A stretch of DNA of 64,000 bases from Anolis carolinensis. Its lineage: Eukaryota. Below the pieces are notes generated by a model. It saw only the letters and a list, made by a program, of their open reading frames with translations, was not told where the DNA came from and did not search any database. Location of the stretch: positions 67,316,201-67,380,200 of the forward strand of contig NC_085843.1 in the NCBI RefSeq assembly GCF_035594765.1. Reading direction: 5' to 3'. A program made the position numbers and the translations under genes. This document shows, in pieces, positions 482-63,899 of this stretch. Positions within the stretch are counted from its first letter, which is position 1; every line of letters starts with the position of its first letter.

Positions 482-2935
482 CTAGGATCTTAAAGTCTTG
501 GGATCCATAAGCCCAGGAGGCTTATGGATCCTGATGGATTCCTGATGGCTCTTGGGGATTTTCCTGCCACTTCGGTAGGTGATTCTGTCAAAACCCTGGC
601 AGACCTCTATAATACGGAGGTAGCCAGGGCAGTTGACACAATCGCTCCTGAGCATCTTCTTTCACAACTCAGGTATAAGTCAGCCCCCTGGTACAACAGG
701 GAGCTGGCAGCGCTGAAGCAAGTGAAACGGAGACTAGAGCAGCGTTGGCGTACTTTGTACAGCAAGTCCGACCGTGCACGGTCTAGAGCTTATTTAAGAG
801 CCTATTCTGTGGCAATGAAGGCGGCAGAAAAATCATATATTGCCGCCAACATTGCATCTGCAACCGTCCAAGAGAGCTGTTTCGAGTGGTCAGGGGACTT
901 TTAAACCCTGCCCATCCAGAGACCCCTGACCAATCGGCAGCTCATTGTGATGAATTTGCTAGGTTCTTTGAGGATAAAGTCGCTCGGATCCGCTCTGACT
1001 TAGACACCAATATTAGTGCAGTCTCTGTGGATGTAACTGAGGAATCTGCTTGTCCCTGTTTAATGGATTCCTTTTGGTTAGTTCGGCCCGAGGACGTGGA
1101 CAAGACCTTGGGAGAAATGAGGCCGACTACATGTTCTCTAGACCCTTGCCTGTCCTGACTTATAAAATCAGCCAGGGGAGACTGGCGGAGTGGGTGAAGG
1201 TGCTGGTTAATGCCTCCTTGACCCAAGGCACAATGCCAATTAGATTCAAGGAGGCAGTTGTAAGACAATTATTAAAGAAACCAGCACTGGATCCCACTGA
1301 CTTGAATAATTACAGGCCAGTATCAAATCTCCCCTTTTTGGGCAAGGTTCTAGAGAAGGTGGTGGCTTCACAACTCCAAAGTTTCTTAGAAGACACCGAT
1401 TATCTGGATCCATCTCAATCTGGTTTCAGGCCTGGTTACGGAACTGAAACGGTATTGGTCGCATTGGTGGATGATCTATGAAGAGAGCTAGACAGGGGGA
1501 GTGTGTCACTGCTAGTTCTCCTGGATCTCTCAGCAGCTTTTGATACCATCGACCATGGTATCCTTCTGGGCCGTCTCTCTGAGATGGGGCTTGGGGGCAC
1601 TGTTTTACAGTGGCTCCGGTACTTCTTGGAGGGGTGGACCCAGATGGTGGAGCTGGGAGACTCCTGTTCGACTCCTTGGCCTGTGGCCTGTGGGGTCCCT
1701 CAGGGTTCAATTCTGTCCCACATGCTGTTTAACATTTACATGAAACCGCTGGGAGAGATCATCTGGAGTTTTGGAGTTTGGTGTCAAATTTATGCAGATG
1801 GCACCCAACTCTATTACTCCTTTCCACCAAAAGCCAAGGATGCTGTTCTGATCCTGAACCAATGCCTGTCATCAGTGATGGACTGGATGGCCAACAAACC
1901 AAAACGAAATCCAGACAAAACAGAGGTACTCCTGGTCAGTCGTAATCCCAGACGTAAGGGTGTGGGATTACAACCTGTGCTGGATGGGGTCGCACTCCCC
2001 CTGAAGACACAGGTTCACAGTCTGGGGGTGCACCTGGACCCATCGTTGACCCTGGAATCCCAGGTGTCATCGGTGGCCAGGAGTGCCTTCGCACAGCTAA
2101 AACTTGTGCACCAGCTGCACCCATACCTTGAGACACCAGACTTGGCCATGGTAGTCCATGCCTTAGTCACATCCCGTTTAGACTACTGCAACGCTCTCTA
2201 CATGGGGCTGCCTTTGAAGATAGTTCGGAAACAACAGCTAGTTCAGCGATCGGCAGCCAGGTTACTAACTGGAGCACCGTACAGGGAGAGAACTACTCCC
2301 GTGTTGCAGCAGCTCCACTGGCTGCCGGTCCGTTTCTGAACTAAATACAAAGTGCTGGTTGTTACCTATACAGCCCTAAATGGCTTAGGTCCAGGGTATT
2401 TGTCAAATCACTTCTCCCTGTATAGACCATCTCGGGCACTTCGGTCAGTGGAGGAGGCCCTGCTCTCGGTCCCACACTCGTCACACGTGCGGCTGGTGGG
2501 AATGAGAGAGGGGGGCCTTCTCCGTGATTGCCCCGCGCCCCTAGAACTCCCTCCCTAAAGAAATAAAAATGGCCTCCACCCTCCTCTCCTTTAAGAAACA
2601 GTTAAAAACACATCTTTGCACCTTAGCATATGGAGAGGAGGAGGACTAACATAACTACCACCCCATAGCAGCTATGGTCTAAGTGAAACTGAACAACTTG
2701 GTCACTTTAACTGGTCCAGTTATACACTCGCTCTGTGCAATAATGTTTTTACTGATTTTCACATTTAAATTCATTGTTTTTTAATGTGGAATTTTTATTA
2801 TAATGTGTAAGTTATTGTCATTTTATACTTTTGATATTATGAAGAAATTGTGGCATTGAATGTTTGTCATTTATATGTATGTTAACAGCCCTCAGTCCCT
2901 TTGGGGAGAGAGGGCATTCTAGAAATAAAGTTTTA

Positions 2936-2989: not shown

Positions 2990-4725
2990 AACTTTAGTTT
3001 ATCGTCCATTCTGGCATTGAAGAGCCCCAGTGTGTCGAAGGGAAGGTCCTCGATGACCTGCCTGGACGAGGATGATAGGCTGGACGATCTAAGCCAGAAA
3101 TGGCGTTGAATGGCGGCTGCATGGGCAATCATTTTGCTAGCGGTATCACCTGTGTGCTTTGCCATCTGGATCTGATGGTGAGCTAGAGTCTGCCTCTTGT
3201 TGTAGGGTTGTGAGGACCAATCAATCTTCATCAGAGAGCTTCGAGAAGCAAGCTTGGGCTTTTTCCCACAGTATTTGCTAATAAGCCCCCATGCAGTCCC
3301 TGTAGTTAGCCATGCCTCGATCCTCTTTGAAATTGGATGTATCGATGATGGGGTTTTCCAGGGGGGCTGAATAACATTGAGCAGGTATGGGAGGAAAGGC
3401 AACAAAGTGGTCAGAGGAGCTTCTGCCTGGACCCTGGGTCTGTGGCTGCTTAGGAGGTTTGTTTTATTTCAAGGCCAAGGGCATCAGCCATTCCTACCAT
3501 TTGATCAGCGAAAGCACGATCATTGTTGGTAGGAGATGAAAGGTCGACCTCATAGACTTCTGGAGCAGGCAAAAGGTCAAGGCTTAGTGACAAGACCAAG
3601 TCTAAATGCACAGATTCTGAAAGGTCATTGTCTTGCTCATCATCTTTGGTACCTTGAGGATAGGATGCCATTGCATCAGGAAGCTGTAAGGCAGGTAGGT
3701 GGGAAGAAGAGGCTGGTCGAGGGTCCTTTGAAGCGGAGGCTTGTACGGCTCTAGCAAGATGAGTCATTTGCCTACCCCTTTCTGGCATCACCGAGGGTGG
3801 GAACAGTTCCTGGCAGGTTTGAAGTTGTTGTGCCCAAGTCTCTGGAACTGACACCTGGACCACTGTCTAAGTAGAGTGGTGGGGTGAGTCCTGAATTTCG
3901 CCCTCAGACGACTGGTGGATCAGCGATTTGGATGACACCTCCTAGGTTGCACCGGTTGGATCAGTGAGGACTTTCTCGATGAGGTGGCTGAGGAGGAAGG
4001 AACATTCTTCTTAGAGGAGGCTGAGGAAGAGGAACGCTGCATCAGCCTCTTTTTTGAAAGAGACTGTTTCGATGGAGCCCTCATTGATTTGCCTGGCATT
4101 AGCGGGATTGGGCAGTAAGGTGCCAAGTCAGATTGAGCATGGCGTGTTTCCTCATAGACCCATTTGAATGTGATCTTCATCACCGATATTGAGGAAGGGA
4201 TGCCACGTGGGATTGAAGTCGAGGTTGAGGAAGGGCTGACTGCCTGATCAAGTCGACACTGTGGCAGTGGTTACTGTGCAGGGAAGTTTCAGGGCTTTGG
4301 AAATCTTTGAGGCCTTCGAAGTCATTGAGTGGCCTTTAGTGGAGCTAAAGTGGAGGATGAGGGTGGAGGTGCGAGAGATCTCTGGGCCATGAAGGCGAGG
4401 CAATGGTGGCAAGATCCGACCACGTGGCCCTCACCCAAGAAGAGGAAGCATTTAGCATGCCCGTCTGAATCGGGGATCTTGGCTGCATATTGCATGCATC
4501 TTTTAAATCGAGTAGTAGACATCAGGAAGATTCCAAAGTGAACTTTGCAGCAGAAAAAAAGGAACTGGGGAGTGTGCGCCCAGGGCTGTCTTTTATACCC
4601 TGTGGGGAAGGGGGCAGGGTTACCGCCAAAATGTAAAAGGTTCAGCTTGGAAGATTTTCCATTGGAGCCTGCACAGGCACAGATATCTCCACTAGTGTGC
4701 ATTCACAGAGTACACAAAGAAGAAA
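2990..4725 (-). mobile_element. DIRS-like retrotransposon: left terminus and degenerate gag (LAP2alpha-like)
   Basis: N-terminal Cys/His motif FKRCMQYAAKIPDSDGHAKCFLFLGEGHVVGSCHHC (ORF 4322-4702); RHFWL...IEDLPFDTLGLF (ORF 2980-3405); minus-strand terminus TTTCTTCTTTGTGTACTCTGTGAATGCACAC. Confidence 0.85.
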
Positions 4726-4729
4726 CAGC

Positions 4730-4920
4730 ATTGTTGTGTGCCATCATTTCTGACTTATAGACACTGTGTCATGGATTTTTCTTGGCAGAATTTGTTCAGA
4801 GTGGGGTCTACATTTGCCTTTCTATGGGGCAAAAAAACCCGTGACTTGTCCAGTGGGTTTACATGATTGACCAGGAATGCAAACTCATATATCTCAGTGT
4901 CCTAGTCCAACACTCAAATT
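4730..4920 (-). mobile_element. Old tRNA-derived squamate SINE remnant
   Basis: Similar to the copies at 52777-52890 (+) and 61575-61730 (-): tgtgcc..atttctgacttat...gtgacttg...tagtccaacactca. Confidence 0.6.
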
Positions 4921-5296
4921 ATGATATCAAAATTCAGCTGGGTCTTTGGAATAGTGTCATAATTCTGTGCATTCCCCATTAAAAGATAACATTCTGTAAT
5001 GGCATCATATACAATGTCATTGGCAGCTGGTAACTATTGTATTACTTTAAATGTCATATTTGACTTATCTTACAGCATAGATGGATAAATAGATTGATAG
5101 GTAGATAGAGAGATAGATATTGCTCTTTGGCAGCAGGTGTCCAAAACAGCTAATGTTTTTAAAAGGCAAGCTTCCACTTAAGCAAAAGGTCTATCCTTCT
5201 TTGTAATAACTTTACACATATTTATATAATGGAAGGAAAAAGGAAGAGAGGACGACCATGGGCAAGATGGATGGATGGTATCCTTGAAGTGAATGT

Positions 5297-5329
5297 GTTG
5301 TACTTGCGCCAAGGGGCAGTTCTGGTACT

Positions 5330-5361
<32 letters not shown>

Positions 5362-6111
5362 CAGTATTTATATTCCGCCCGTCTCAGCCCGAAGGGGACT
5401 CAGGGCGGATCACATTACACATATAAGGCAAACATTCAATGCCTTAACATAGAACAAAGACAAGACAAACACGGGGCTCCGAGCTGGCCTCGAACTCATG
5501 ACCTCCTGGTCAGAGTGATTCATTGCAGCTGGCTGCAGCTGCTTGCTCAACAGCCTGCGCCACAGCCCAGTAAAATTGCTAGTAGGAGGAAAAGGGATAA
5601 TGCTGAGCAGGTGTTTGATGAGGAACAGCAAGTAAAGCGGATTCGGGAAATACTTATGGCTCCTACTGATGAGGAGACGTTTGAAGGCTTCTCTAGTGAG
5701 GAGGACTCAATGGAGGAAGATGATGGGTTAACAGAAAGTAGAGGAACTAAGAGGTCAACTCGGGAGCAAGAGTCAGATGAGGAAAGGGAAAGAAAGAAGA
5801 TTCGTGATATACTTACTGCTCCCACGGAAGATGAAACGTTTGAAGGTTTTTCTGGGGATGATGGGTCTGAGAGTGGGATGGAAGATGCTGCAGATTGGAC
5901 TCAAGTAAATGTGTGTGCAGCACCAGATTCTGAGGGTGCATCGGGAGACTAGCATGCTACTGGTACACCAGAGACATGGGGAGATCTAAATCTTGAACAA
6001 AGATGGCGTGATTGGAGGGCTGGTGGGCGAGGTTCACATATGAGATCAAGATCAGCTGTGGATAATGATAACAGGGCGGAGGCCTCATCATCATCAGACT
6101 CCGAGGTGTAA
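5297..6111 (+). pseudogene. LTR(U3)-encoded acidic ORF with two FxGF motifs, disrupted by a SINE and one TAG (5950-5952)
   Basis: VVLAPRGSSGT / SKIASRRKR..IREILMAPTDEETFEGF..IRDILTAPTEDETFEGF..TWGDLNLEQRWRDWR..MRSRSAVD..SDSEV*; colinear with copy 2. Confidence 0.8.
5331..5568 (-). mobile_element. Anolis SINE2-type SINE (tRNA-like head, L2-like tail), short variant
   Basis: Reverse complement matches the head (gggctgtggcgcaggctgttgagc) and the tail (gtgatccgccctgagtccccttcggg...aatataaatactgtaaataaa) of the copy at 11447-11909. Confidence 0.85.
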
Positions 6112-6259
6112 GTTAAAAGTGGAATTGAAAGTGAAGGTCCCTTGCAGAAGGCAAGGTGTCGTTTTTGGGACATTGCTTTTCGCTGCCTGTTCTCCTTGGG
6201 TCATGGCTGTACAGTTTCATGTTCTGAATCCGGATTGATTCCTGCTTTGGTGTTCTTGA

Positions 6260-6595
6260 CTTGGCATTTCTGGCTTGCCGTTCCTGGCTTCTGAATCCAG
6301 TTTGGCTCCTGACGACAGCGTTCGTTCCTGCTTTGGCGTCCCTGGCTTGGCATTTCTGGCTCCTGAATCCAGTTTGGCTCCTGACGACAGCATTCGTTCC
6401 TGGCTTGGCGTTCCTGGCTCCTGAATCCAGTTTGGCTCCTGACGACAGCGTTTTGCTCCTGGCTTGGCGATTCCAACTTGGTGTTTCTGGCTTCCACTGG
6501 CTCCTGAATCCGGTCTGCTTCCTGACGACAACAGTGTTTGCTCCTGGCTTGGCATTTTTGGCACCTTTTGGCTTTTGAACTTGGCTTGGCTTTTG
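6260..6595. repeat. Imperfect tandem repeats inside LTR A copy 1 (core ggctcctgaatccagtttggctcctgacgacagc)
   Basis: About four copies with variable spacers, directly visible. Confidence 0.85.
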
Positions 6596-7704
6596 GCAAC
6601 GGTATCATTTGCACTCATTATTTAAGAGCGTTTGGCGCTTCCCTGACTCTGTGCCACAGCATAGCGTGGCGCTTGTTTCAGTGAATGTTTTAGTTACATT
6701 TGAACCGGATTATCAAGCTACATAATCTGGGTTATCTTTCTGATCCTGTTTTGTGCCTTTTCTTGAAGCAAAGATGTTTACTTTTGGTGGAAACACTGAA
6801 GTTAAGTGTTTATGAGTTCTATTTATCATTTAATAAACATTTGCTGACTTTATTTATTGTGTGTGGCTCTTTAAGAGGAGTCTGTATCGTGATAGAATGG
6901 CTTCACCTTGAAGGAGCTGGGGATGGCGACGGCCGACAGGGAACTCTGGCATGGACTGGACCATGAGGTCACAAAGAGTCGAAAACGACTGAGTGAATGA
7001 AGAGAGCTATATGGGATTCAATACATATAGCAATTGTTTTTGTTTAGACCTGCATGACTAATTTCCAGGTTCCTAGAAAAATGTGCTTGATTGTGACTGA
7101 ATAGTGTTCTCTGAAGTTGAAAAATAGTAATTCTCTGAATTCTCGGCCTTCATTTATCACTCTTATCTGCTTTACTACACTTTTCAAAATGTTCATTCTC
7201 AAATTTACCTTTCTATAGTGACTAACAGCTAGTAGAATTTAGATTTTTATTTCTAAAGGGTACCCTTTATGTTGATTGTATCTTCCTAAGAGATCCCAGT
7301 GAAATGCCACTGAAGAGATTTACCCTGAGGTTGCCTTAGAGTAATTTATGTGATTTATTTTGCACAACTTAGCAATAATCATTAAAGTTCATTAGATTAG
7401 AGGGAGAATCATTGTCACACTGTCATCCGGATGCATGGGCTAATTTCAGTGGTGATGCTTAGTGTTTTAATTATGCAAACCTCCCCACTCCTTTACATCC
7501 CACACTTCTAATGAACTGCTCAAAGGAGCTTGAAAACTCAACAATTTTACGTTACACAATGGATTTTATGCATATATTTGTGTGAAAGAAAGGGAGAGTA
7601 TACAGGCATTGTTACATACAGCAGACTGTTAATAGTCTGAACTGGTCCCAGTTCATCAGTTTGGGCCATAGTAACAAGAGTTTCAATGTATAGTTACCAT
7701 GTAG

Positions 7705-14694: not shown

Positions 14695-15145
14695 TCGACA
14701 AACTCCTGACAGATGGCCAGCCAATATCTCCACAATCTCCACCATAAAAATAATAATAGTATCCTACAGTCACAGAGATAGGAGAGACCCCTAAAGGCCA
14801 TCCAGTCCAACCCCTTCCTGCCATGGAGAACACAATCCAAACACTCCTGACAGATGGCCAGCCAATATCTCCACAATCTCCACCATAAAAATAATAATAA
14901 AATCCTACAGTCACAGAGATAGGAGAGACTCCTAAAGGCCATCCAGTCCAACCTCTTCCTGCCATGGAGAACACAATCCAAACATTCCCAACAGATGGCC
15001 ATACAGCCTCTTGATAATAATAATGCTAATAACAATATCACGGAATCCTCATGTTTGCAGACAGCCCTAAGAATCATCCAGTACAACCTCCTTCTACCAT
15101 GCAAGACCACACAATCCAAACACTCCTGACAGATGGCCATCCACC
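14695..15145. repeat. Tandem ~140-bp repeats built on a CR1 3'-end fragment inside Helitron 1
   Basis: Recurrent aaggccatccagtccaacc...acacaatccaaacactcctgacagatggcc, similar to the CR1 end at 38870-39004. Confidence 0.75.
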
Positions 15146-15526
15146 CACTATATAATAATAATGATGATAATAAAGATAATAATCATGATGATAACAGCAA
15201 CAATGATAATAATAATAATAATCATACAACTATACCATCCAATAATTTAGAGACACCCCTAACGGCCATCCACCCCAACCCTTTCTACTATGCACCAAGA
15301 CACAATCTAACCATTCACAACACTTGGACAATGTATGCATACTATACAATACTACACAGCGACAAAGACCCCCTCTACTCTCACCACTTTCACATTACAC
15401 AAACAACCAAATACATACTAAACATAAAGACAACCATACAACAGACATTCAATACCATCACTAGCTCAAATTTCTCACCAACACCACCAGACAACGCCAC
15501 AGCAACGTGTGGCCGGGCACAGCTAG

Positions 15527-17804
15527 TCTATATATATATTAAAGGATAAAGTTGTTTGCAGAGTGACTATAACAACAAAACTAAACGCCCCAGTAATACA
15601 AAACTTGGCAACACAATGCCAAAGCCTTCCCTCCCAGTTGTAACAACACAACCACACCACAAAACCACAATCCAGACCCACAAAACTCACAACAACGCAT
15701 CGTGACTATAACAACACAACTAAACGCCCCAGAAATACAAAACTTGACAACACAACACAAAAGCCTTGCCTCCCAGTTGTAACAACACAACCACACCACA
15801 AAACCACAATCCGGACCCACAAAACTCACAACAACACATCATGACTATAACAACACAACTAAATGCCCCAGAAATATTAAACTTGGCACACAACTAAATG
15901 CTCCAGAAATACAAAACTTGACAACACAACGCAAAAGCCTTGCCTCCCCGTTGTAACAACACAACCACACCACAAAACCACAATCTGGACCCACAAAACT
16001 CACAACAACGCATCGTGACTATAACAACACAACTAAATGCCCCAGAAATATGAAACTTGCCAACACAACGCAAAAGCCTTCCCTCCCAGTTGTAACAACA
16101 CAACCACACCACAAAACCACAATCCAGACCCACAAAACTCACAACAACGCATCGTGACTATAACAACACAACTAAACGCCCCAGAAATACAAAACTTGAC
16201 AACACAACACAAAAGCCTTGCCTCCCAGTTGTAACAACACAACCACACCACAAAACCACAATCCGGACCCACAAAACTCACAACAACACATCATGACTAT
16301 AACAACACAACTAAATGCCCCAGAAATATTAAACTTGGCACACAACTAAATGCTCCAGAAATACAAAACTTGACAACACAACGCAAAAGCCTTGCCTCCC
16401 CGTTGTAACAATACAACCACACCACAAAACCACAATCTGGACCCACAAAACTCACAACAACGCATCGTGACTATAACAACACAACTAAATGCCCCAGAAA
16501 TATGAAACTTGCCAACACAACGCAAAAGCCTTGCCTACCGGTTGTAACAACACAACCACACCACAAAACCACAATCTGGACCCACAAAACTCACAACAAC
16601 GCATCGTGACTATAACAACACAACTAAATGCCCCAGAAATATGAAACTTGCCAACACAACGCAAAAGCCTTGCCTACCGGTTGTAACAACACAACCACAC
16701 CACAAAACCACAATCCTGACCCACAAAACTCACAACAACGCATCGTGACTATAACAGCACAACTAAACTGTATGGCCATCTGTCTGAGGGGTTTGGGTGG
16801 GGTCTTCCTCCATGACAAAAAGAAAGAAAGGGGTTGGGCTTGATGAAAACTACAAATCCCAGCACCCCATGGCATGGAGTCCATGCATTTCAATTAGAGG
16901 CCTCTTCCTTCTCCCTTTCCCCGCCATCCAACCCACTGACCCAGTTCCATGGCTCCGCAGGCAGGAAAGGCTGGGACGGATAGAACGAAGGAAGGAGGGA
17001 AGGGAAGCGAAGGAACGCCAAGGACAAGAGCCCTCCCTCTCTGCCTGGAAGGCCAAGAGCAAAAGGGAGAGAAAGACCATTGATCCAGTTATATTTACCC
17101 TCCTTTCTGACCAGTGTGTTCTTATCAGCGAGCTCAGGATTGGAGCAGAGAAAGGAATAGCATAGGAATAAAGGAAACAAGGAGAGCACCCACTCTATCT
17201 ATCCATCTACTCATCTATCCATCCACTCACCCACTAATAATAAACACCTACACAGGCAAGATTCATCCATGCTCTGAGTCTGCAAGGCCATTCAGTGCTC
17301 ATCCACCTCCCAATCCCTACATTCACACTTGGCCTCCAAAAAAAACAATGACAATAATAACAATGACAACAACAACAATAAGAATCAACACCATCACAGG
17401 CAAGAAGCAGCCAGGCACTGAGGCTGAGAGGCCAGTCAGTGCTACACTGGGCCTCCAAAAAAAATACAGTAGCATCTACCTTATCCAACCTTCATGACCA
17501 CAACAACAACAACAATAATAAACACCTACACAGGCAAAACAAAAAAAAAAGACTATTGTACCACAATAAAAAATATAAACCGCACTCAGCAGAATCAGAC
17601 ATCACGATTAACAACAAACCAAAGACAATAGGGATCTCAAGCAATTATCAATCACCACAAAAATTGAAGAAGGTAACAGACTTCAAATACTACTACTAAT
17701 GTGAGTAAAAAGAAGGGTGGAGGTGACAGCATAAATACAACCCAATGTAGACTGACCAACACCACCAGACTAAGCCACAGCAACACGTGGCCGGGCACAG
17801 CTAG
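15527..17804 (+). mobile_element. Non-autonomous Helitron 2, directly abutting Helitron 1
   Basis: TCTATATATAT start immediately after the CTAG of Helitron 1; ends GCCACAGCAACACGTGGC..CTAG|T; 17545-17804 is homologous to the 3' end of Helitron 3. Confidence 0.9.
15563..16768. repeat. 139-bp minisatellite with 452-bp higher-order structure
   Basis: Unit starts at 15563, 15702, 15841, 16015, 16154, 16293, 16467, 16606 and 16745. Confidence 0.95.
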
Positions 17805-49818: not shown

Positions 49819-52189
49819 TGTTTGTCCTGTTTTCTTCTTTATTGCTCTTTGTGGTTTACTTTATTTTAGATTAATAACTTTAGCTTATTTTCTTTTGTCC
49901 ATTCTTGTAGTATCTGTGGAATTGTTCTAAAATATCCCGGTCCTTTGTATAGGTCTTGTCCCCTATGGTTGTGTTGCTCTTGTTTCTTTTTACTAAGTTT
50001 TCTTGAAAGCCATCTTCCCGGCTTGTTGGTATTTTGAAATTGGTATTGTTTTAAAAATTTTAGATCTTTTGCCAACTGGTCCAACTCCATAAAATTCTTT
50101 TGTTTATTCAAAAGGTTCAGTTCTTGTTTCAGTTTATTGTTTCCTGGTTGGCGCTTTAACTTTTTCTCTGTTGTTTCTATTTCTCTTTGTAATTCTTTTA
50201 ATTTCTGGGTTTTCATCTTGTTTCTGATGCTGTTTTGTTGGATGAAGTGGCCCCTCATCACGGCCTTACTCGCCTCCCAAGTGATTTGATTGTCCGTGTC
50301 CTCTGGGGAGTTTAGTAGAAAGTATTCTGTTAGAAATGTTTGGTTTTTTAGTACATCATCTTCTGATCTTAGCAGATTGTCGTTTAGTCTCCATTTTTTG
50401 TTTTCATTTCTTTGATTTATAACGATTTCCAGGGGGCAGTGGTCCAATATATGTCTTGGTAGTATTTTAATTTTGTCGATTTTAGAAGTGAGGGTCTTAG
50501 AAGTCCAGGCCATGTCTATACGGGACCATCCTTTATGCCTATCATTGATGTGGTGTACTCTCCAAGCATCTTCCAGAGCAAGATCTTTTTTGAGTGTCAA
50601 AATTTTTTCTGGTAATTTCCTTAATTTTAGTAATCCTTTTAAATTTTTTGGTGGGTTCGTATCTTGTTTTACTTCCATCACCCCATTAAAATCTCCAATT
50701 AACATTATGTCGTATGTTTCTTTTTCTATGATAAATTCTTTACGTTTTTCTATGAATTTTGTTTTGGGGCATATGCTCATTTGGGGCATATATGTTGCAT
50801 ACCAGTAGTTTTCTTCCCCCTTTTTCCAACTTCACTCCAATAATTCTGCCCTCAGAGTTTTTAAATGCTAAACTTGCTTGTAATGTGTCTTTAGCAAGTG
50901 GACATAGCACTAAACGAAACATGCAGAATAATCACAGGACGCCTTAAACCTACACCTGTTGATAAACTCTACAAGTTAGCTGGCATTGCCCCTCCTGACG
51001 TGCGATGGGAAGTTGCTGCTAACTGTGAGAGAAATAAGGTCGAACATTGTGAAAGCCATCCACTGCATGACTATTAGACTCCTCCCATCAGACTCAAATC
51101 AAGGAAGGGCTCATGAGAACCACCACTCCTCTTGATGTTCCTCTAGCAGCAGCAAGGGTGTCCCTCTGGGCAGCTAAACCTGGCAATTCCAACAGGATGG
51201 CCCCCCATGAGGGTCTTCCTCCTGGGGCAAACCAAGAATGGGCAGCTTGGAAGTCCCTGAACAGACTCAGAAGCGGAGTGGGCAGATCTAAAGACAACTT
51301 GGTGAGGTGGCACTACCTGGAGGAATCCTCCACCTTGTGTGACTGTGGAGCAGAACAAACAATTCCGCATTTGTATGCTTGCCCACAATGTCCTGCCTCA
51401 TGCACGGAGGAGGAGTTGTTTAAAGCAACGGACAATGCGGTTGCTGTTGCCCGCTTTTGGTCTAAAACTATTTAGTTGTTTGTGATTTCCTCTATTTTTA
51501 TCATCATTTTTTTTAAAAAATGTATTTGTTATGCAATGCTTTTGACATGAAATAAATAAATGTGTCTTTTACATAGATCACCACTCCCCTCTTCTTTACC
51601 GGTGCTAATGAATGATATTCCTTCCCAAGCAGTTTTTGTGTTAGGTGAACAGCATGTTTTTGACTTGTATATGTCTCCTGAAGGGCTATAAGGTCGTACC
51701 TCCCTTTCTTGAGTTGATTTAGTAGTTTTTCCCTCTTGTTGGGGGAGTTCAGCCCATTGACGTTATTTGAATAGCATTTTAGGGACCACTCCATGACTTT
51801 ATTTACCTTCTACCTCCTCCACCACTCTTTCCAGTGTCGCCTTTGCCATTCCAGGTGGTAATTCACATTTTGGCTTTCCTTTTTTTGTTTTTTTAGAGAT
51901 TTTTATACCAACCCACGATAAAGAAGAAAAGGAAGAAAGGAAGTTAGATACTTTTTCCTTTTCTCTCTCTCTCTTCTTTCTTTTCTTTTTTTTCTTTTTT
52001 CTCTCTCCCCTTTTTCAATTTTTTAAAAATCATTTTATCTTATTGTCCATCCCCCGGTAGTTTTTTTCCCTTTTTTTACCCCCCTTTCCTGTCCCCCTCC
52101 CATTTCTCCCTCCTTGGTCCCCTTTCACCCCTCCCTTGCTCCCCCCCCCCGAAAATCCCTCAATAAAAATTATTAAAGAAAGAAAGAAA
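49819..52189. mobile_element. L1 insertion with inverted 5' part (ORF2 endonuclease on minus; 3' UTR and A-tail on plus)
   Basis: Minus: SNNVNGLNSPNKR, LQET, RGVVIYV, NIYAPN, IGDFN, SRID, DHCP, WRLN, WEASKAVMRG. Plus: pyrimidine-rich UTR, AATAAA, A-rich tail. Flanks AAGAAGTGACAGAT / AAGAAGCGACGGAT. Confidence 0.8.
50893..51558 (+). mobile_element. Vingi/Ingi-type LINE 3' end nested in L1 ORF2
   Basis: WKSLNRLRSGVGR..CDCGAEQTIPHLYACP; (TAAA)n tail; 11-bp TSD AATGTGTCTTT (50882-50892, 51559-51569); the L1 frame rejoins as YVKDT|LQASL. Confidence 0.88.
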
Positions 52190-55734: not shown

Positions 55735-57780
55735 GATGCCCTCTCCAACCCCGCCGAAATTGGTCTCCTTGGTTCACTGAGGAACTTTGACCGATGAAGC
55801 GGGAAAAGAGACAGCTAAAGGGCGTGTGGCGACAACTCCGTGACAGAGAATTGAGATCAGCTTACAGGGCATTTATGGAGTCCTATGAGCATGCTATCAT
55901 CGAAGCAAAGCGAGTATATTATGCTTCACTAGCTCACGCCTGGCAAAATTGTTCAAAATAATTCGATCTCTAACGACGGTCCCTACTGTCCCAAAAAATG
56001 ATTATCAGGTTCTTTAAGCCAAGGCCTTTCAGAGCTATTTTGCAGACAAGATCTCGCTACTACGCCAGGACCTCCCCGCCACAATTGATACAATGAGAGA
56101 ACTTGAGACTCTGTGGCCACTTGCTGGGCCCACCCTTGATCGGTTCATCCTGCTGGATGCAGAGGCTGTTGATAGGCTTATAGCTGCAGCTAGACCGACC
56201 ACTTGCTCCCTCGATCCATGTCCCTCTTGGTTAGTGAAATCCTGCTTGGAGGGATTATGCAACCCTCTGTTGAAGATAATAAACAGCTCCCTTGAGCAAG
56301 GAGTTTTTCCAGAGGGTTTAAAAAAGGCTGTTGTCTCTGCCCTGCTGAAGAAACCAGATCTAGATCGCTCGATTCCCTCCAGCTACCGCCCAGTTTCGAA
56401 TCTTTCGTTTCTGAGCAAGATGATTGAGAGGGCAGTAGCGGAGCAGTTGCAGCAGTTCCTAGACGACACAGTTGGACTGGATCCCTTCCAGTCCAGCTTC
56501 CGTGTGGGGCACGGGACTGAGACAGTGTTGGTCTCAATCACAGATCATCTTTGATGCCAGCTCGACCAGGGCGGATTGGCGCTGCTTGTGTTATTGGATC
56601 TCACAGCAGTATTTGACACAGTTGATTATAATCTTTTGACCCACCGCCTGGCCGTTGTTGGAGTCAGGGGGACAGCTTTAAATTGGCTGACCTCCTTCCT
56701 TCAAAACCATGGACAGCAAGTGGAGAGGGGAGGCCTGGTCTCTGAAAGGTACTCTCTATTTTGTGGGGTTCCTCAGGGGGCCATCCTCTCCCCTCTGCTG
56801 TTTAACATCTATATGCAACCACTTGCTCAGCTGGTTCGAGATTTCGGGCTTGAGTGCTACCAGTACACTGATGACACTCAGCTTGTGTTGAAGATGGAAG
56901 GCCGACCAGACTCTGTACCCAATAACTTTCATCAATGTCTCGAGGCCGTTACTGGATGACTACGTGCCAGCAGGTTGAGGGTGAATCCAGCAAAGACAGA
57001 GATCTTATGGCTGGGCCGACCGGGCAATGGGGATATCCAGTTGCCTACCCTGGATGGTGAGGCACTATGCCCGTCATCACTGGTAAGGAGTCTGGGAGTC
57101 CTTTTGGACCCTTTGTTGACAATGGAGGCCCAGGTCTCCACCATTGGCAGTACCGCCTTTTTTCATCTGCAGCAGGTTAGACGGCTGGCCCCCTATCTGT
57201 CTAGAGACAACCTAGCCACAGTGATCCAGGCCATGGCCATCTCAAGACTGGACTACTGTAACACCCTCTACATTGGCCTTCCTCTGTCGGTGATCCAGAA
57301 GCTCAAGTTGGTACAAAATGCAGTGGCTCGGCTTCTTGCAGGAGTCCCGTTGAGATGCCACATAACACCAATCTTATTACCACTGGTTACCAATTGAGCA
57401 CCAGATCGCCTTCAAAGTGATGGTACTTACCTTTAAGGCCTTACATGGTCTGGGGCCGATGTACCTGAGGGACCATCTCACCCCCTACTAACCCCAGAGA
57501 TCCCTCCGTTCTGAGGACCAAGACATATTGGTTCCTAGTTTTAAGATCTTGTGCCTAACATCAACTAGACGCAGAGCCTTTACAGCAGTGGCACCATCAC
57601 TTTGGAACACACTGCCACCTGAAGTTTGTGCCTTGTGGGACATATCAGTCTTCCGCAGGGCATGTAAGACACACCTGTTTTGGCAGGCTTTTGATTTCTG
57701 TTATTACTGTTTTTAAATTGTTTTAGATTTTACTATGTTTTGGCAGCCCTAGGGGAGTGGCGGCATATAAGTTCGAAGAA

Positions 57781-62500: not shown

Positions 62501-62677
62501 TGTATATATAAGGGCTTTCTTTTACATGCTTTTGTGGAAGTTCCTGATTAAATGATCAATGTAGGGCCTTTAATTCAGAATATATGGGATAGAGAAGAAT
62601 TCTATATATATATACTTTTTAATAGTAGCATCAGCAAGATATTGGTCAATGTTATATATTGGACTGAAGTAGCTCAT

Positions 62678-63253
62678 GTTGTAGTTGGGCCAAGGGGCAG
62701 TAATGGTTCTATGGGTGAAACAGCTAGAAGGAGAAAAAGGGCTAATAGAGAGCAGGTGCTTGATGAAGAATAACAAGTAAAGCGGGTCCGGGAAATACTT
62801 ATGGCTCCTTCAGAGGATGAGACGTTTTATGGGTTTTCTAGTGATGAGGAGTCCATACTAGATGATGATGATTTCACAGAGAGTAGAGGAACTAAAAGGT
62901 CTACTCGAGAGCAGGAGTCGGATGAGGAAAGAGAAAGGAAAAAGATCCGGGATATACTCACTGCTCCCACTGATGAGGAGACTTTCAAGGGGTTCTCTGG
63001 GAATGATGGGTCTGGGAGTGAGATGGAGAATGCTGATTGGACACAAGTAAATGTAGATGATGAGCCAGTTCATGGGGCTGCATCAGGAGTTTGGCAAGCC
63101 TCTCATACTTCTGGGACATGGGGAGATCTAAATCTTGAACGGAGATGGAGGGACTGGAGGGATGAGAGGCAAGGTCCACTAACAAGATCAAGATCAGCTG
63201 TGATTGATGAGGAAAGGGCGGAGGTCTCATCAGCATCGGACTCCGATGAGTAA
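62678..63253 (+). pseudogene. LTR(U3)-encoded acidic ORF with two FxGF motifs; one premature TAA (62771-62773), 62801-63253 still open
   Basis: VVVGPRGSNGSMGETARRRKR..VREILMAPSEDETFYGF..IRDILTAPTDEETFKGF..TWGDLNLERRWRDWR..LTRSRSAVID..SDSDE*. Confidence 0.82.
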
Positions 63254-63431
63254 GTTAAAAGTAGAGTTTAGAGAACTATTGCCTTGCAGAAGGCAAGGTG
63301 TCGTTTTGGGGACATTGCTTTGTCGCTGCCTGTTCTCCTTGGGTCCTGGCTGTACAGCTTCCTGATAATCCGGATTGAATCCTGCTTCAGTGTTCCTGGC
63401 TTCTGACTCCAGTTCGGCTCCTGACAACGCC

Positions 63432-63710
63432 GTTTTCAGTTTGGCGTTTCTTTTGGCTTTCCTGCTTCGATATTTCCAGTTTGGCGTTTGCTTTGGCGTT
63501 CTTGCTCCAGCGTTTCCAGTTTGGCGTTTGCCTTTGCGTTTCTGCTCCAGCGTTTCCAATTTGGCATTTGCCTTGGCGTTCCTTCTCCAGCGCTTCCAGT
63601 TTGGAGTTTGCCTTGGTGTTTCTACTCCAGCGTTTCCAGTTTGGCGTTTGCCTTGGCGTTCCTGCTCCAGCGTTTCCAGTTCGGCGTTTGCCTTGGCGTT
63701 CCTGCTTTGG
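63432..63710. repeat. 39-bp tandem repeat in LTR A copy 2 (ccagtttggcgtttgccttggcgttcctgctccagcgttt)
   Basis: About seven copies, directly visible. Confidence 0.9.
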
Positions 63711-63899
63711 CATCCCTGCTTTGGCACTTCTAAGTTAAGTGTTTCTGAGTTTAAAATATCATTTAATAAACATTTAAGAACTTTCCTTAATGTGTGTGGC
63801 TTTTTAAGAGCTGTATCACGACAGCTCACCTTTTTTCTTTGGCTCAGCACTAAGATTACCTTATGTGTAGTGTGTCACAAAACTGCGATCTGCAGAGGA

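What the first reader, a model, noticed from the sequence alone, without database searches (positions are those of the whole stretch)
5731..5826. Direct evidence of purifying selection on the LTR A reading frame
Seen: hand alignment of 5731-5826 with 62876-62971 (32 codons, TESRGTKRSTREQESDEERERKKIRDILTAPT) gives 13 nucleotide differences, all third-position synonymous, and no replacements. Each copy has one private premature stop where the other has a sense codon (TAG at 5950 vs TGG; TAA at 62771 vs CAG), as expected for decay after insertion. Both frames end at the same TAA just before a GTTAAAAG TATA-like box. Inference: the two source lineages diverged under selection on a protein encoded within the LTR, a region usually treated as non-coding.
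Basis: seen in the sequence. Interest (0 to 1): 0.85.

Follow-up and report, generated by a model that had tools for sequence, protein, structure and literature searches.

The report
Retrotransposon integrase tail mimics LEDGF partners
The conserved reading frame in these lizard retrotransposon end-repeats is the tail of the element's integrase enzyme, and it carries repeated short motifs resembling those that host proteins use to bind the chromatin reader LEDGF, so it likely steers where new copies insert, much as HIV does by another route.

Summary
Observation confirmed: 13 of 13 differences are synonymous third positions. The block is the best part of the frame; whole-frame dN/dS is 0.34 (p 1e-6), 0.52 without the block. 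The two copies are solo LTRs of a Gypsy retrotransposon in a lizard genome. The frame is not a separate LTR gene. In 6 of 9 loci with internal sequence it continues the integrase SH3 (GPY/F) domain in frame. In a young sister family a 1,214-codon pol frame runs 138 codons into the 3' LTR. Coding into the 3' LTR is known from plant CRM elements. The new part: the tail lacks a chromodomain and carries 1-3 helix + acidic linker + FxGF motifs. A profile of them finds one hit among 177,635 PDB sequences, the JPO2 motif bound to LEDGF/p75 (E 5e-5); single copies score weakly. Best reading: an integrase targeting tail that mimics host LEDGF/HRP2 ligands (about 55%). Binding and insertion bias are not shown, and copies are depleted on small contigs. 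New variant of a known kind.

The parts
5296..6894 (+). Solo LTR, subfamily A (TGT...ATA, decayed ACA end), 5-bp target-site duplication GAATG
   Evidence: ends match 30 genome copies
5330..5568 (.). SINE inserted in the first codons of the LTR-coded frame (boundaries approximate; Sauria SINE is a recalled name)
   Evidence: repeats elsewhere in the window; absent from other A copies
5569..6111 (+). Integrase C-terminal tail frame in U3, copy 1; private stop at 5950-5952; terminal TAA 6109-6111
5635..5691 (+). Motif 1, KRIREILMAPTDEETFEGF: predicted helix, acidic linker, FxGF
5731..5826 (+). The finding's 32-codon block: basic/acidic spacer plus the helix of motif 2
5794..5850 (+). Motif 2, KKIRDILTAPTEDETFEGF
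6112..6154 (+). TATA-like GTTAAAAG and inferred transcript start GCAGAAGGCAA at 6144 (U3/R boundary)
   Evidence: 11 nt pair with the primer-binding site of a two-LTR family member, one G-U wobble; same spacing in the sister family
62677..63823 (+). Solo LTR, subfamily B (TGT...ACA), 5-bp target-site duplication GCTCA
62678..63253 (+). Integrase C-terminal tail frame in U3, copy 2 (191 codons from LTR base 2); private stop at 62771-62773
62780..62836 (+). Motif 1 of copy 2, KRVREILMAPSEDETFYGF
62939..62995 (+). Motif 2 of copy 2, KKIRDILTAPTDEETFKGF
63254..63296 (+). TATA-like box and inferred transcript start at 63286

Best explanation
The frame is the last 190 or so residues of a Gypsy retrotransposon integrase, encoded in U3 of the 3' LTR, and its tandem helix-acidic-FxGF motifs likely bind the host chromatin readers LEDGF/p75 or HRP2 and would thereby tether the integration complex to transcribed chromatin. 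Shown: pol reads in frame through the polypurine tract into the LTR; the frame is under purifying selection, strongest at the motifs; the family has no chromodomain at this position; solo LTRs carry the tail only as a decaying by-product of LTR duplication. Inferred: the frame lies upstream of the transcript start, so it is expressed only from the 3' end of full-length RNA; the tail stays attached to mature integrase; it is disordered apart from short helices (predicted); CK2-type phosphorylation would tune affinity; binding and targeting are untested. Odds: integrase tail about 0.93; LEDGF/HRP2-type binding used for targeting about 0.55.
For: Junction: SH3_Tf2-1 (E 4e-15) and the tail share one open 324-codon frame in L062, downstream of RNase H, integrase zinc finger and rve. 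Same frame in 6 of 9 loci with internal sequence, stop-free from GPY/F to motif 1 or 2 in 5. Sister family D (52-53% identical): L151 has 99.6% identical LTRs, the 3' one starting at 6237, and a pol frame 3010-6651; 19 of 20 D loci read 203 codons from GPY/F to the stop; D tail pN/pS 0.16. Selection at the two motifs: dN/dS 0.09, p 8e-7. P, F, G, F are invariant in 15 motif stretches otherwise 38-90% identical to the first; a third repeat occurs in subfamily C. The motif profile hits 1 of 177,635 PDB sequences at E<=10: 6EMO, LEDGF IBD-JPO2 motif 1, KEVADIFNAPSDDEEFVGF, E 5.1e-5, with the same 8-residue spacing. The window peptide alone ranks 6EMO first of 7 (E 0.45). AlphaFold places helices at 30-42 and 82-95, directly before each linker, in an otherwise low-confidence chain. 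The review PMC9987994 defines the motif as helix + 8-16-residue acidic linker + FxGF, the last read by LEDGF and HRP2. Control: 0 of 65 readable chromovirus tails from metagenome loci contain any FxGF. The host has PSIP1 (P0010). An unnamed integrase, P0006, has chromodomain plus two acidic FxGF motifs.
Against: The PDB match depends on the query: none for a 90-aa stretch, E 0.45 for one window peptide, 6EMO not among 4 hits for the family-D peptide, E 0.2 and second rank for the whole-tail profile. The successful profile was cut around the FxGF after I had recalled the resemblance. Of the LEDGF-partner fusions in the PDB (JPO2, IWS1, MLL1, PogZ) only one was hit. P0006's motifs barely score on the profile (0.3 bits). 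Motif-bearing families are depleted outside the six largest contigs: 2 of 80 (A/B) and 10 of 146 (D) against 15.3% expected, while the tail-less family E has 22 of 150 (D vs E p 0.04). If the small contigs are gene-dense microchromosomes (recalled), that is opposite to simple gene targeting; the lists are top-score samples and post-insertion loss was not modelled. Family F keeps its chromodomain and also reads about 95 codons into its LTR without the motif, so LTR coding predates or is independent of it. Clear homologues of the tail were found only in this species or unnamed records.
Confidence: 0.55

Rival explanations
1. The frame is the integrase tail and is selected, but the likeness to LEDGF ligands is incidental: the helix-acidic-aromatic repeats bind another partner (another TND protein, histones, import receptors) or serve in particle assembly.
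For: Short acidic motifs match by chance more often than E-values suggest; weak single-sequence scores; the most conserved block includes a basic stretch (RGTKR, RERKK) upstream of the FxGF; depletion on small contigs.
Against: P, F, G, F invariant across 15 stretches, three tandem repeats and two families; sole PDB hit is a LEDGF ligand with the same spacing; 0 of 65 control tails have FxGF.
Confidence: 0.24
2. The motifs do bind LEDGF/HRP2, but not to choose insertion sites: the tail, attached or released by the element's protease, stabilises integrase, recruits elongation factors to new copies, or competes with host ligands.
For: TND-TIM contacts organise transcription elongation (PMC9987994); LEDGF also affects lentiviral integrase multimerisation (PMC5053271); contig distribution shows no enrichment on small contigs.
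Against: The tail sits where chromoviruses carry their targeting module (PMC3059260); the motif-bearing families lack the chromodomain.
Confidence: 0.15
3. A separate accessory protein is made from the LTR frame, from its own ATG or from a spliced RNA, like Nef or MMTV Sag.
For: Subfamily B has an ATG at 62711 and family D one just inside the LTR; gene callers list such products (P0129, P0004).
Against: Subfamily A lacks that ATG; the frame is open across the polypurine tract from the integrase in families A-D and F; it ends before the inferred TATA and transcript start.
Confidence: 0.05
4. No protein-level selection: the third-position pattern reflects chance, DNA-level constraint or the antisense frame.
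For: The antisense frame sharing third positions has dN/dS 0.28-0.29; codons 151-180 have low synonymous divergence.
Against: Run of 20 against a shuffled maximum of 11; sense frame has no shared stop, all five other frames do; in-frame fusion to pol.
Confidence: 0.01

Closest known systems
Plant CRM group A chromoviruses with the CR motif (PMC3059260, passages read)
   Same: [quoted passage not shown]
   Different: Plant clade, centromere targeting, partner unknown. Here a vertebrate family with tandem FxGF motifs. No sequence comparison with the CR motif was run.
TND-interacting / IBD-binding motifs of JPO2 (CDCA7L), IWS1, MLL1, PogZ, JIL-1 (PMC9987994; 10.1101/624023; PDB 6EMO)
   Same: Helix, 8-residue acidic S/T-rich linker, FxGF; tandem copies; disordered context.
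   Different: Carried by a mobile element's integrase rather than a host protein; binding untested.
Lentiviral integrase-LEDGF/p75 tethering (PMC5053271, passages read)
   Same: Integrase would use the same host domain to reach transcribed chromatin.
   Different: Lentiviruses bind through the folded catalytic core dimer and N-terminal domain; here a linear host-like motif on a C-terminal tail.
Integrase tails with short host-binding motifs: MLV-BET (PMC5053271), Ty1-AC40 (PMC7459421, listing only), Ty3, HTLV-1-B56 (listings only), Ty5-Sir4 (recalled)
   Same: A short C-terminal motif on integrase recruits a host chromatin or transcription factor.
   Different: None of the listings or passages I saw names an FxGF/TND motif or LEDGF for a retrotransposon.
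Tf1/sushi-type self-priming Gypsy elements (PMC4600332, passages read)
   Same: SH3_Tf2-1 domain; primer-binding site complementary to 11 nt just after the TATA box.
   Different: No chromodomain in families A-D; clade assignment against named references not tested.

Membership tests
Ty3/Gypsy LTR retrotransposon | pol order RT - RNase H - integrase | tested here: met
   L062: partial RVT_1 (E 5e-5, under cut-off), RT_RNaseH, Integrase_H2C2, rve, SH3_Tf2-1 in that order
Ty3/Gypsy LTR retrotransposon | TG...CA LTRs, short target duplication, polypurine tract before the 3' LTR | tested here: met
   5-bp duplications at both window copies; GGAGGGGGATAG before the LTR; two-LTR member L264 with gag
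Chromovirus (Tf1/sushi type) | GPY/F motif at the integrase C-terminus | tested here: met
   SH3_Tf2-1 E 4e-15
Chromovirus (Tf1/sushi type) | Chromodomain after GPY/F | tested here: not met
   No Chromo family at E<=1 in the two tail-bearing frames; present in family F and P0006
Chromovirus (Tf1/sushi type) | Self-priming primer-binding site | tested here: met
   L264: 11-nt pairing with one G-U; L151: 11 nt
Chromovirus (Tf1/sushi type) | RT phylogeny inside the clade of named chromoviruses | tested here: inconclusive
   No named references held; a 131-column integrase tree joins A-C with D (100/99) but deep branches are weak
TND-interacting motif (LEDGF IBD-binding type) | Short alpha-helix with hydrophobic anchors | tested here: met
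   Predicted only: helices 30-42 and 82-95, block pLDDT 63-73
TND-interacting motif (LEDGF IBD-binding type) | Acidic linker of 8-16 residues with S/T | tested here: met
   8 residues between the last anchor and F (MAPTDEET, TAPTEDET), as in 6EMO; at the lower limit
TND-interacting motif (LEDGF IBD-binding type) | FxGF | tested here: met
   invariant in 15 of 15 aligned stretches, which were selected by a pattern requiring it
TND-interacting motif (LEDGF IBD-binding type) | Measured binding to a TND; CK2 phosphorylation | not testable with these tools
   needs bench work; S/T-x-x-D/E sites are present (consensus recalled)
CRM CR motif | Sequence similarity to the CR motif; centromeric location | not tested
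   treated as an analogue only
Independent LTR gene (Nef/Sag type) | Own conserved start or spliced mRNA, stop between pol and the LTR frame | tested here: not met
   no stop between integrase and tail; ATG absent in subfamily A

The most novel reading that the evidence does not exclude
A vertebrate Gypsy lineage replaced its chromodomain with tandem mimics of the host's LEDGF/HRP2-binding motif, written into its LTR, and so converged on the HIV integration cofactor by a different interface; the LTR-coded integrase tail is a swappable module of chromatin-binding motifs across lizard Gypsy families, with thousands of genomic copies recording the result.
Probability: 0.5. Interest if true: 0.82.

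Novelty: new variant of a known kind. Interest (0 to 1): 0.62.

Why it matters
How vertebrate Gypsy elements choose insertion sites is little known, and LEDGF use by an integrase has been described as lentivirus-specific (reference title in PMC9987994). A retrotransposon integrase with host-like FxGF motifs would be a second, independent route to the same tether and an example of a mobile element mimicking a TND-interacting motif. It is directly testable with short peptides, and the same genome holds natural controls: families with the motif (A-D), with a chromodomain (F) and with no tail (E). It also warns that LTRs of such families are partly coding, which matters for LTR-based dating and neutral-rate estimates.

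Tried and rejected
Complex prediction of the lizard LEDGF domain (P0010 400-488) with the window peptide: no verdict, score 0.33 against a mark of 0.34, controls 0.00-0.01; peptides are outside the tool's tested range; not used as evidence either way. Pfam on the two window frames: nothing above cut-off. Protein search for longer homologues of the tail: 0 of 1,355 candidates. Profile search of 1.84 billion representatives: 4 hits; three named as this species, one unnamed and close to family D. ESM Atlas on P0006 170-350: chromodomain clusters only. Sequencing runs: no RNA holder on record; 4 runs of contigs laid on L151 listed no GT-AG joint among the 15 joints shown, 2 more not shown; contigs cannot show absence, so splicing is not excluded. 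Pattern search for the family's primer-binding site: 0 hits, because the one natural example has a mismatch. I first took L062 for a full-length element; its upstream LTR is a separate fragment. The contig count for family E was typed as 24 and corrected to 22. Host-gene context: the 80 long stop-free stretches scanned (of 155 of 75 aa or more) gave only mobile-element families and one weak hit under its cut-off, so whether the window lies in an intron is unknown. The Nature Communications paper on the LEDGF motif was not held. Earlier-findings look-ups returned nothing. Literature searches listed no paper on an FxGF motif in a retrotransposon integrase; subscription journals, Repbase and Dfam were not searchable, and the family itself is probably catalogued. 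No supplements were read.

Full report
Observation. The two stretches align without gaps; 13 of 96 columns differ, all at codon position 3, and both give the same 32 residues. The stops at 5950 and 62771 and the shared terminal TAA before GTTAAAAG are as described. With transition weighting 26% of single changes in the block would be synonymous, so 13 of 13 has p about 3e-8; allowing for the choice of window, the observed run of 20 consecutive same-position differences exceeds the maximum of 11 in 20,000 shuffles. The block is the extreme of the frame. For the window pair dN/dS is 0.34 over 180 codons (p 1.3e-6), 0.52 without the block (p 0.006), 0.35 for codons 1-150 without the block, 0.09 over the two motifs described below, and 2.84 (p 0.14) for codons 151-180. 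Over 30 x 30 genome copies it is 0.36; within subfamilies 0.80 and 0.63. These pairs are not independent. The antisense frame that shares third positions also gives 0.29, but only the sense frame has no stop shared by half the copies in either subfamily.

What the copies are. Both are solo LTRs: 5296-6894 with duplication GAATG and 62677-63823 with GCTCA. First looks in the 1.85-Gb genome returned 900 and 1,384 candidates, 40 scored each; I took the best 30 of each. Relatives named by NCBI and UniRef are from Anolis carolinensis and their contig lengths equal those of this genome. Copy 1 is interrupted by a SINE near its 5' end.

The parent element. Some copies are preceded by a polypurine tract and internal sequence. 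L062 holds part of RT, RNase H, the integrase zinc finger, rve and SH3_Tf2-1 in Gypsy order, and the SH3 domain and the LTR frame lie in one stop-free 324-codon stretch. A search with the junction gave 9 loci with internal sequence. In 6 (L066-L070, L072) SH3 and tail are in the same frame, one of them with a stop at the SH3 end; L071 and L073 are shifted near the tract, and L074 ends before the LTR. A sister family D shares the tract and junction. In L151 the LTRs are 99.6% identical, the 3' LTR starts at 6237 and the 1,214-codon pol frame ends at 6651, 138 codons inside it. Of 20 D loci, 19 read 203 codons from GPY/F to the stop, with pN/pS 0.16 in the LTR-coded part and 0.10 just upstream. 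A-C and D form one side of a branch (100/99). So the frame is the integrase C-terminus (shown), not a free-standing gene.

Position relative to the promoter. In L264, a two-LTR member, the bases after the 5' LTR pair over 11 nt (one G-U) with GCAGAAGGCAA, which lies 24 nt after GTTAAAAG; family D shows the same at 25 nt. This is the self-priming arrangement of Tf1-type elements (PMC4600332, passages). It supports the TATA reading and puts the whole frame in U3, upstream of the start (inferred). A solo LTR's own promoter would not transcribe it; the copies in the window are decaying by-products.

The motifs. The tail has two repeats in A and B, three in C and one in D. In 15 natural stretches, picked by a pattern that requires the motif, P, F, G and F are invariant. 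I recalled the likeness to LEDGF-binding motifs and then tested it. A profile of the 15 stretches hits one of 177,635 PDB sequences at E<=10, the JPO2 motif 1 fused to the LEDGF integrase-binding domain (6EMO, E 5.1e-5), with identical spacing. Four other query forms were weaker: no hit, first rank at E 0.45, absent, second rank at E 0.2. The review PMC9987994 (part 1 of 6 and passages read) defines these motifs as helix, 8-16-residue acidic linker and FxGF, the last recognised by LEDGF and HRP2, and under viral mimicry names only lentiviral integrases. The JIL-1 preprint (passages) gives a fly example. AlphaFold predicts a disordered tail (mean pLDDT 53) with helices just before each linker. 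None of 65 readable chromovirus tails among 80 metagenome loci has an FxGF; most appear to be non-animal elements (recalled impression), so this control is loose. P0006, an unnamed integrase, has a chromodomain followed by two acidic FxGF motifs that score poorly on the profile and sits apart in the tree with weak support; it may be an independent or older case. The lizard has PSIP1.

Results against. Copies of motif-bearing families are rarer than expected outside the six largest contigs (2 of 80, p 5e-4; 10 of 146, p 0.003; expected 15.3%), while tail-less family E matches expectation (22 of 150) (counts read, tandem duplicates not removed). This shows a non-random distribution but not the direction that simple gene targeting predicts if small contigs are gene-rich. 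Family F keeps a chromodomain and also codes about 95 residues in its LTR, with no hit to the motif profile in 30 loci. The tail's clear homologues are confined to this species in the collections searched.

Mechanism. Shown: pol reads into the 3' LTR; the tail is selected, most strongly at the motifs; the chromodomain is absent. Inferred: the tail remains on integrase, each motif folds onto the LEDGF or HRP2 domain as JPO2 does, tandem copies add avidity, and the PWWP domain of the host protein holds the complex on H3K36-methylated chromatin (established for lentiviruses, PMC5053271, passages). I put this at 0.55; another partner or role for a selected tail 0.24; LEDGF binding for a purpose other than site choice 0.15; a separate accessory protein 0.05.

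Comparison and novelty. Coding into the 3' LTR with a targeting module in place of the chromodomain is known from plant CRM group A (PMC3059260, passages), and short host-binding motifs on integrase tails are known. It works like those; it is not a CRM element and fails the chromodomain criterion of chromoviruses. Eight literature searches (listings only apart from the five papers named) showed no report of an FxGF motif on a retrotransposon integrase. Interest 0.62.

Noticed in passing
L234-L263 (family F), e.g. L241:1966-2640: Chromodomain-bearing Gypsy family with the same polypurine junction; pol reads about 95 codons past it. The tail has DEEENLGF and many copies end in RRSARIAAK, which resembles the HMGN nucleosome-binding core (recalled, untested).
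   Followed up: partly
L100-L129 (family E), e.g. L153:6459-6510: Young family with a single 1,553-1,601-codon frame ending right after SH3; a pyrimidine run ending in CAG, like a splice acceptor, lies between the stop and the polypurine tract.
   Followed up: no
P0006: Unnamed integrase with chromodomain, two acidic FxGF motifs and a basic C-terminal stretch; possible intermediate or independent gain.
   Followed up: partly
L071:2259-2384, L073:2254-2379, L072: Subfamily C has a third motif repeat that is reduced by deletion in A and B.
   Followed up: partly
window 6250-6570 and 63430-63710: The LTR downstream of the inferred start holds subfamily-specific tandem repeats of variable copy number (about 72 and 40 bp periods).
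   Followed up: no
window 31760-32880: PIF1 helicase pieces (PF05970, PF21530), probably a Helitron remnant.
   Followed up: no
window 1041-2336, 56018-56956, 51516-51809: Reverse transcriptase and endonuclease pieces of non-LTR retrotransposons.
   Followed up: no
window 14700-16770: Long tandem arrays (periods about 140 and 450 bp) seen in the self-comparison.
   Followed up: no
L096 (G000:C2:143718346-143718648): Intronless PSIP1/LEDGF retrocopy, 95% identical to the gene, with one stop in the integrase-binding domain.
   Followed up: no
G000:C4:80.50-80.52 Mb and C1:26.75-26.76 Mb: Family-D copies in tandem about 5.2 kb apart.
   Followed up: no
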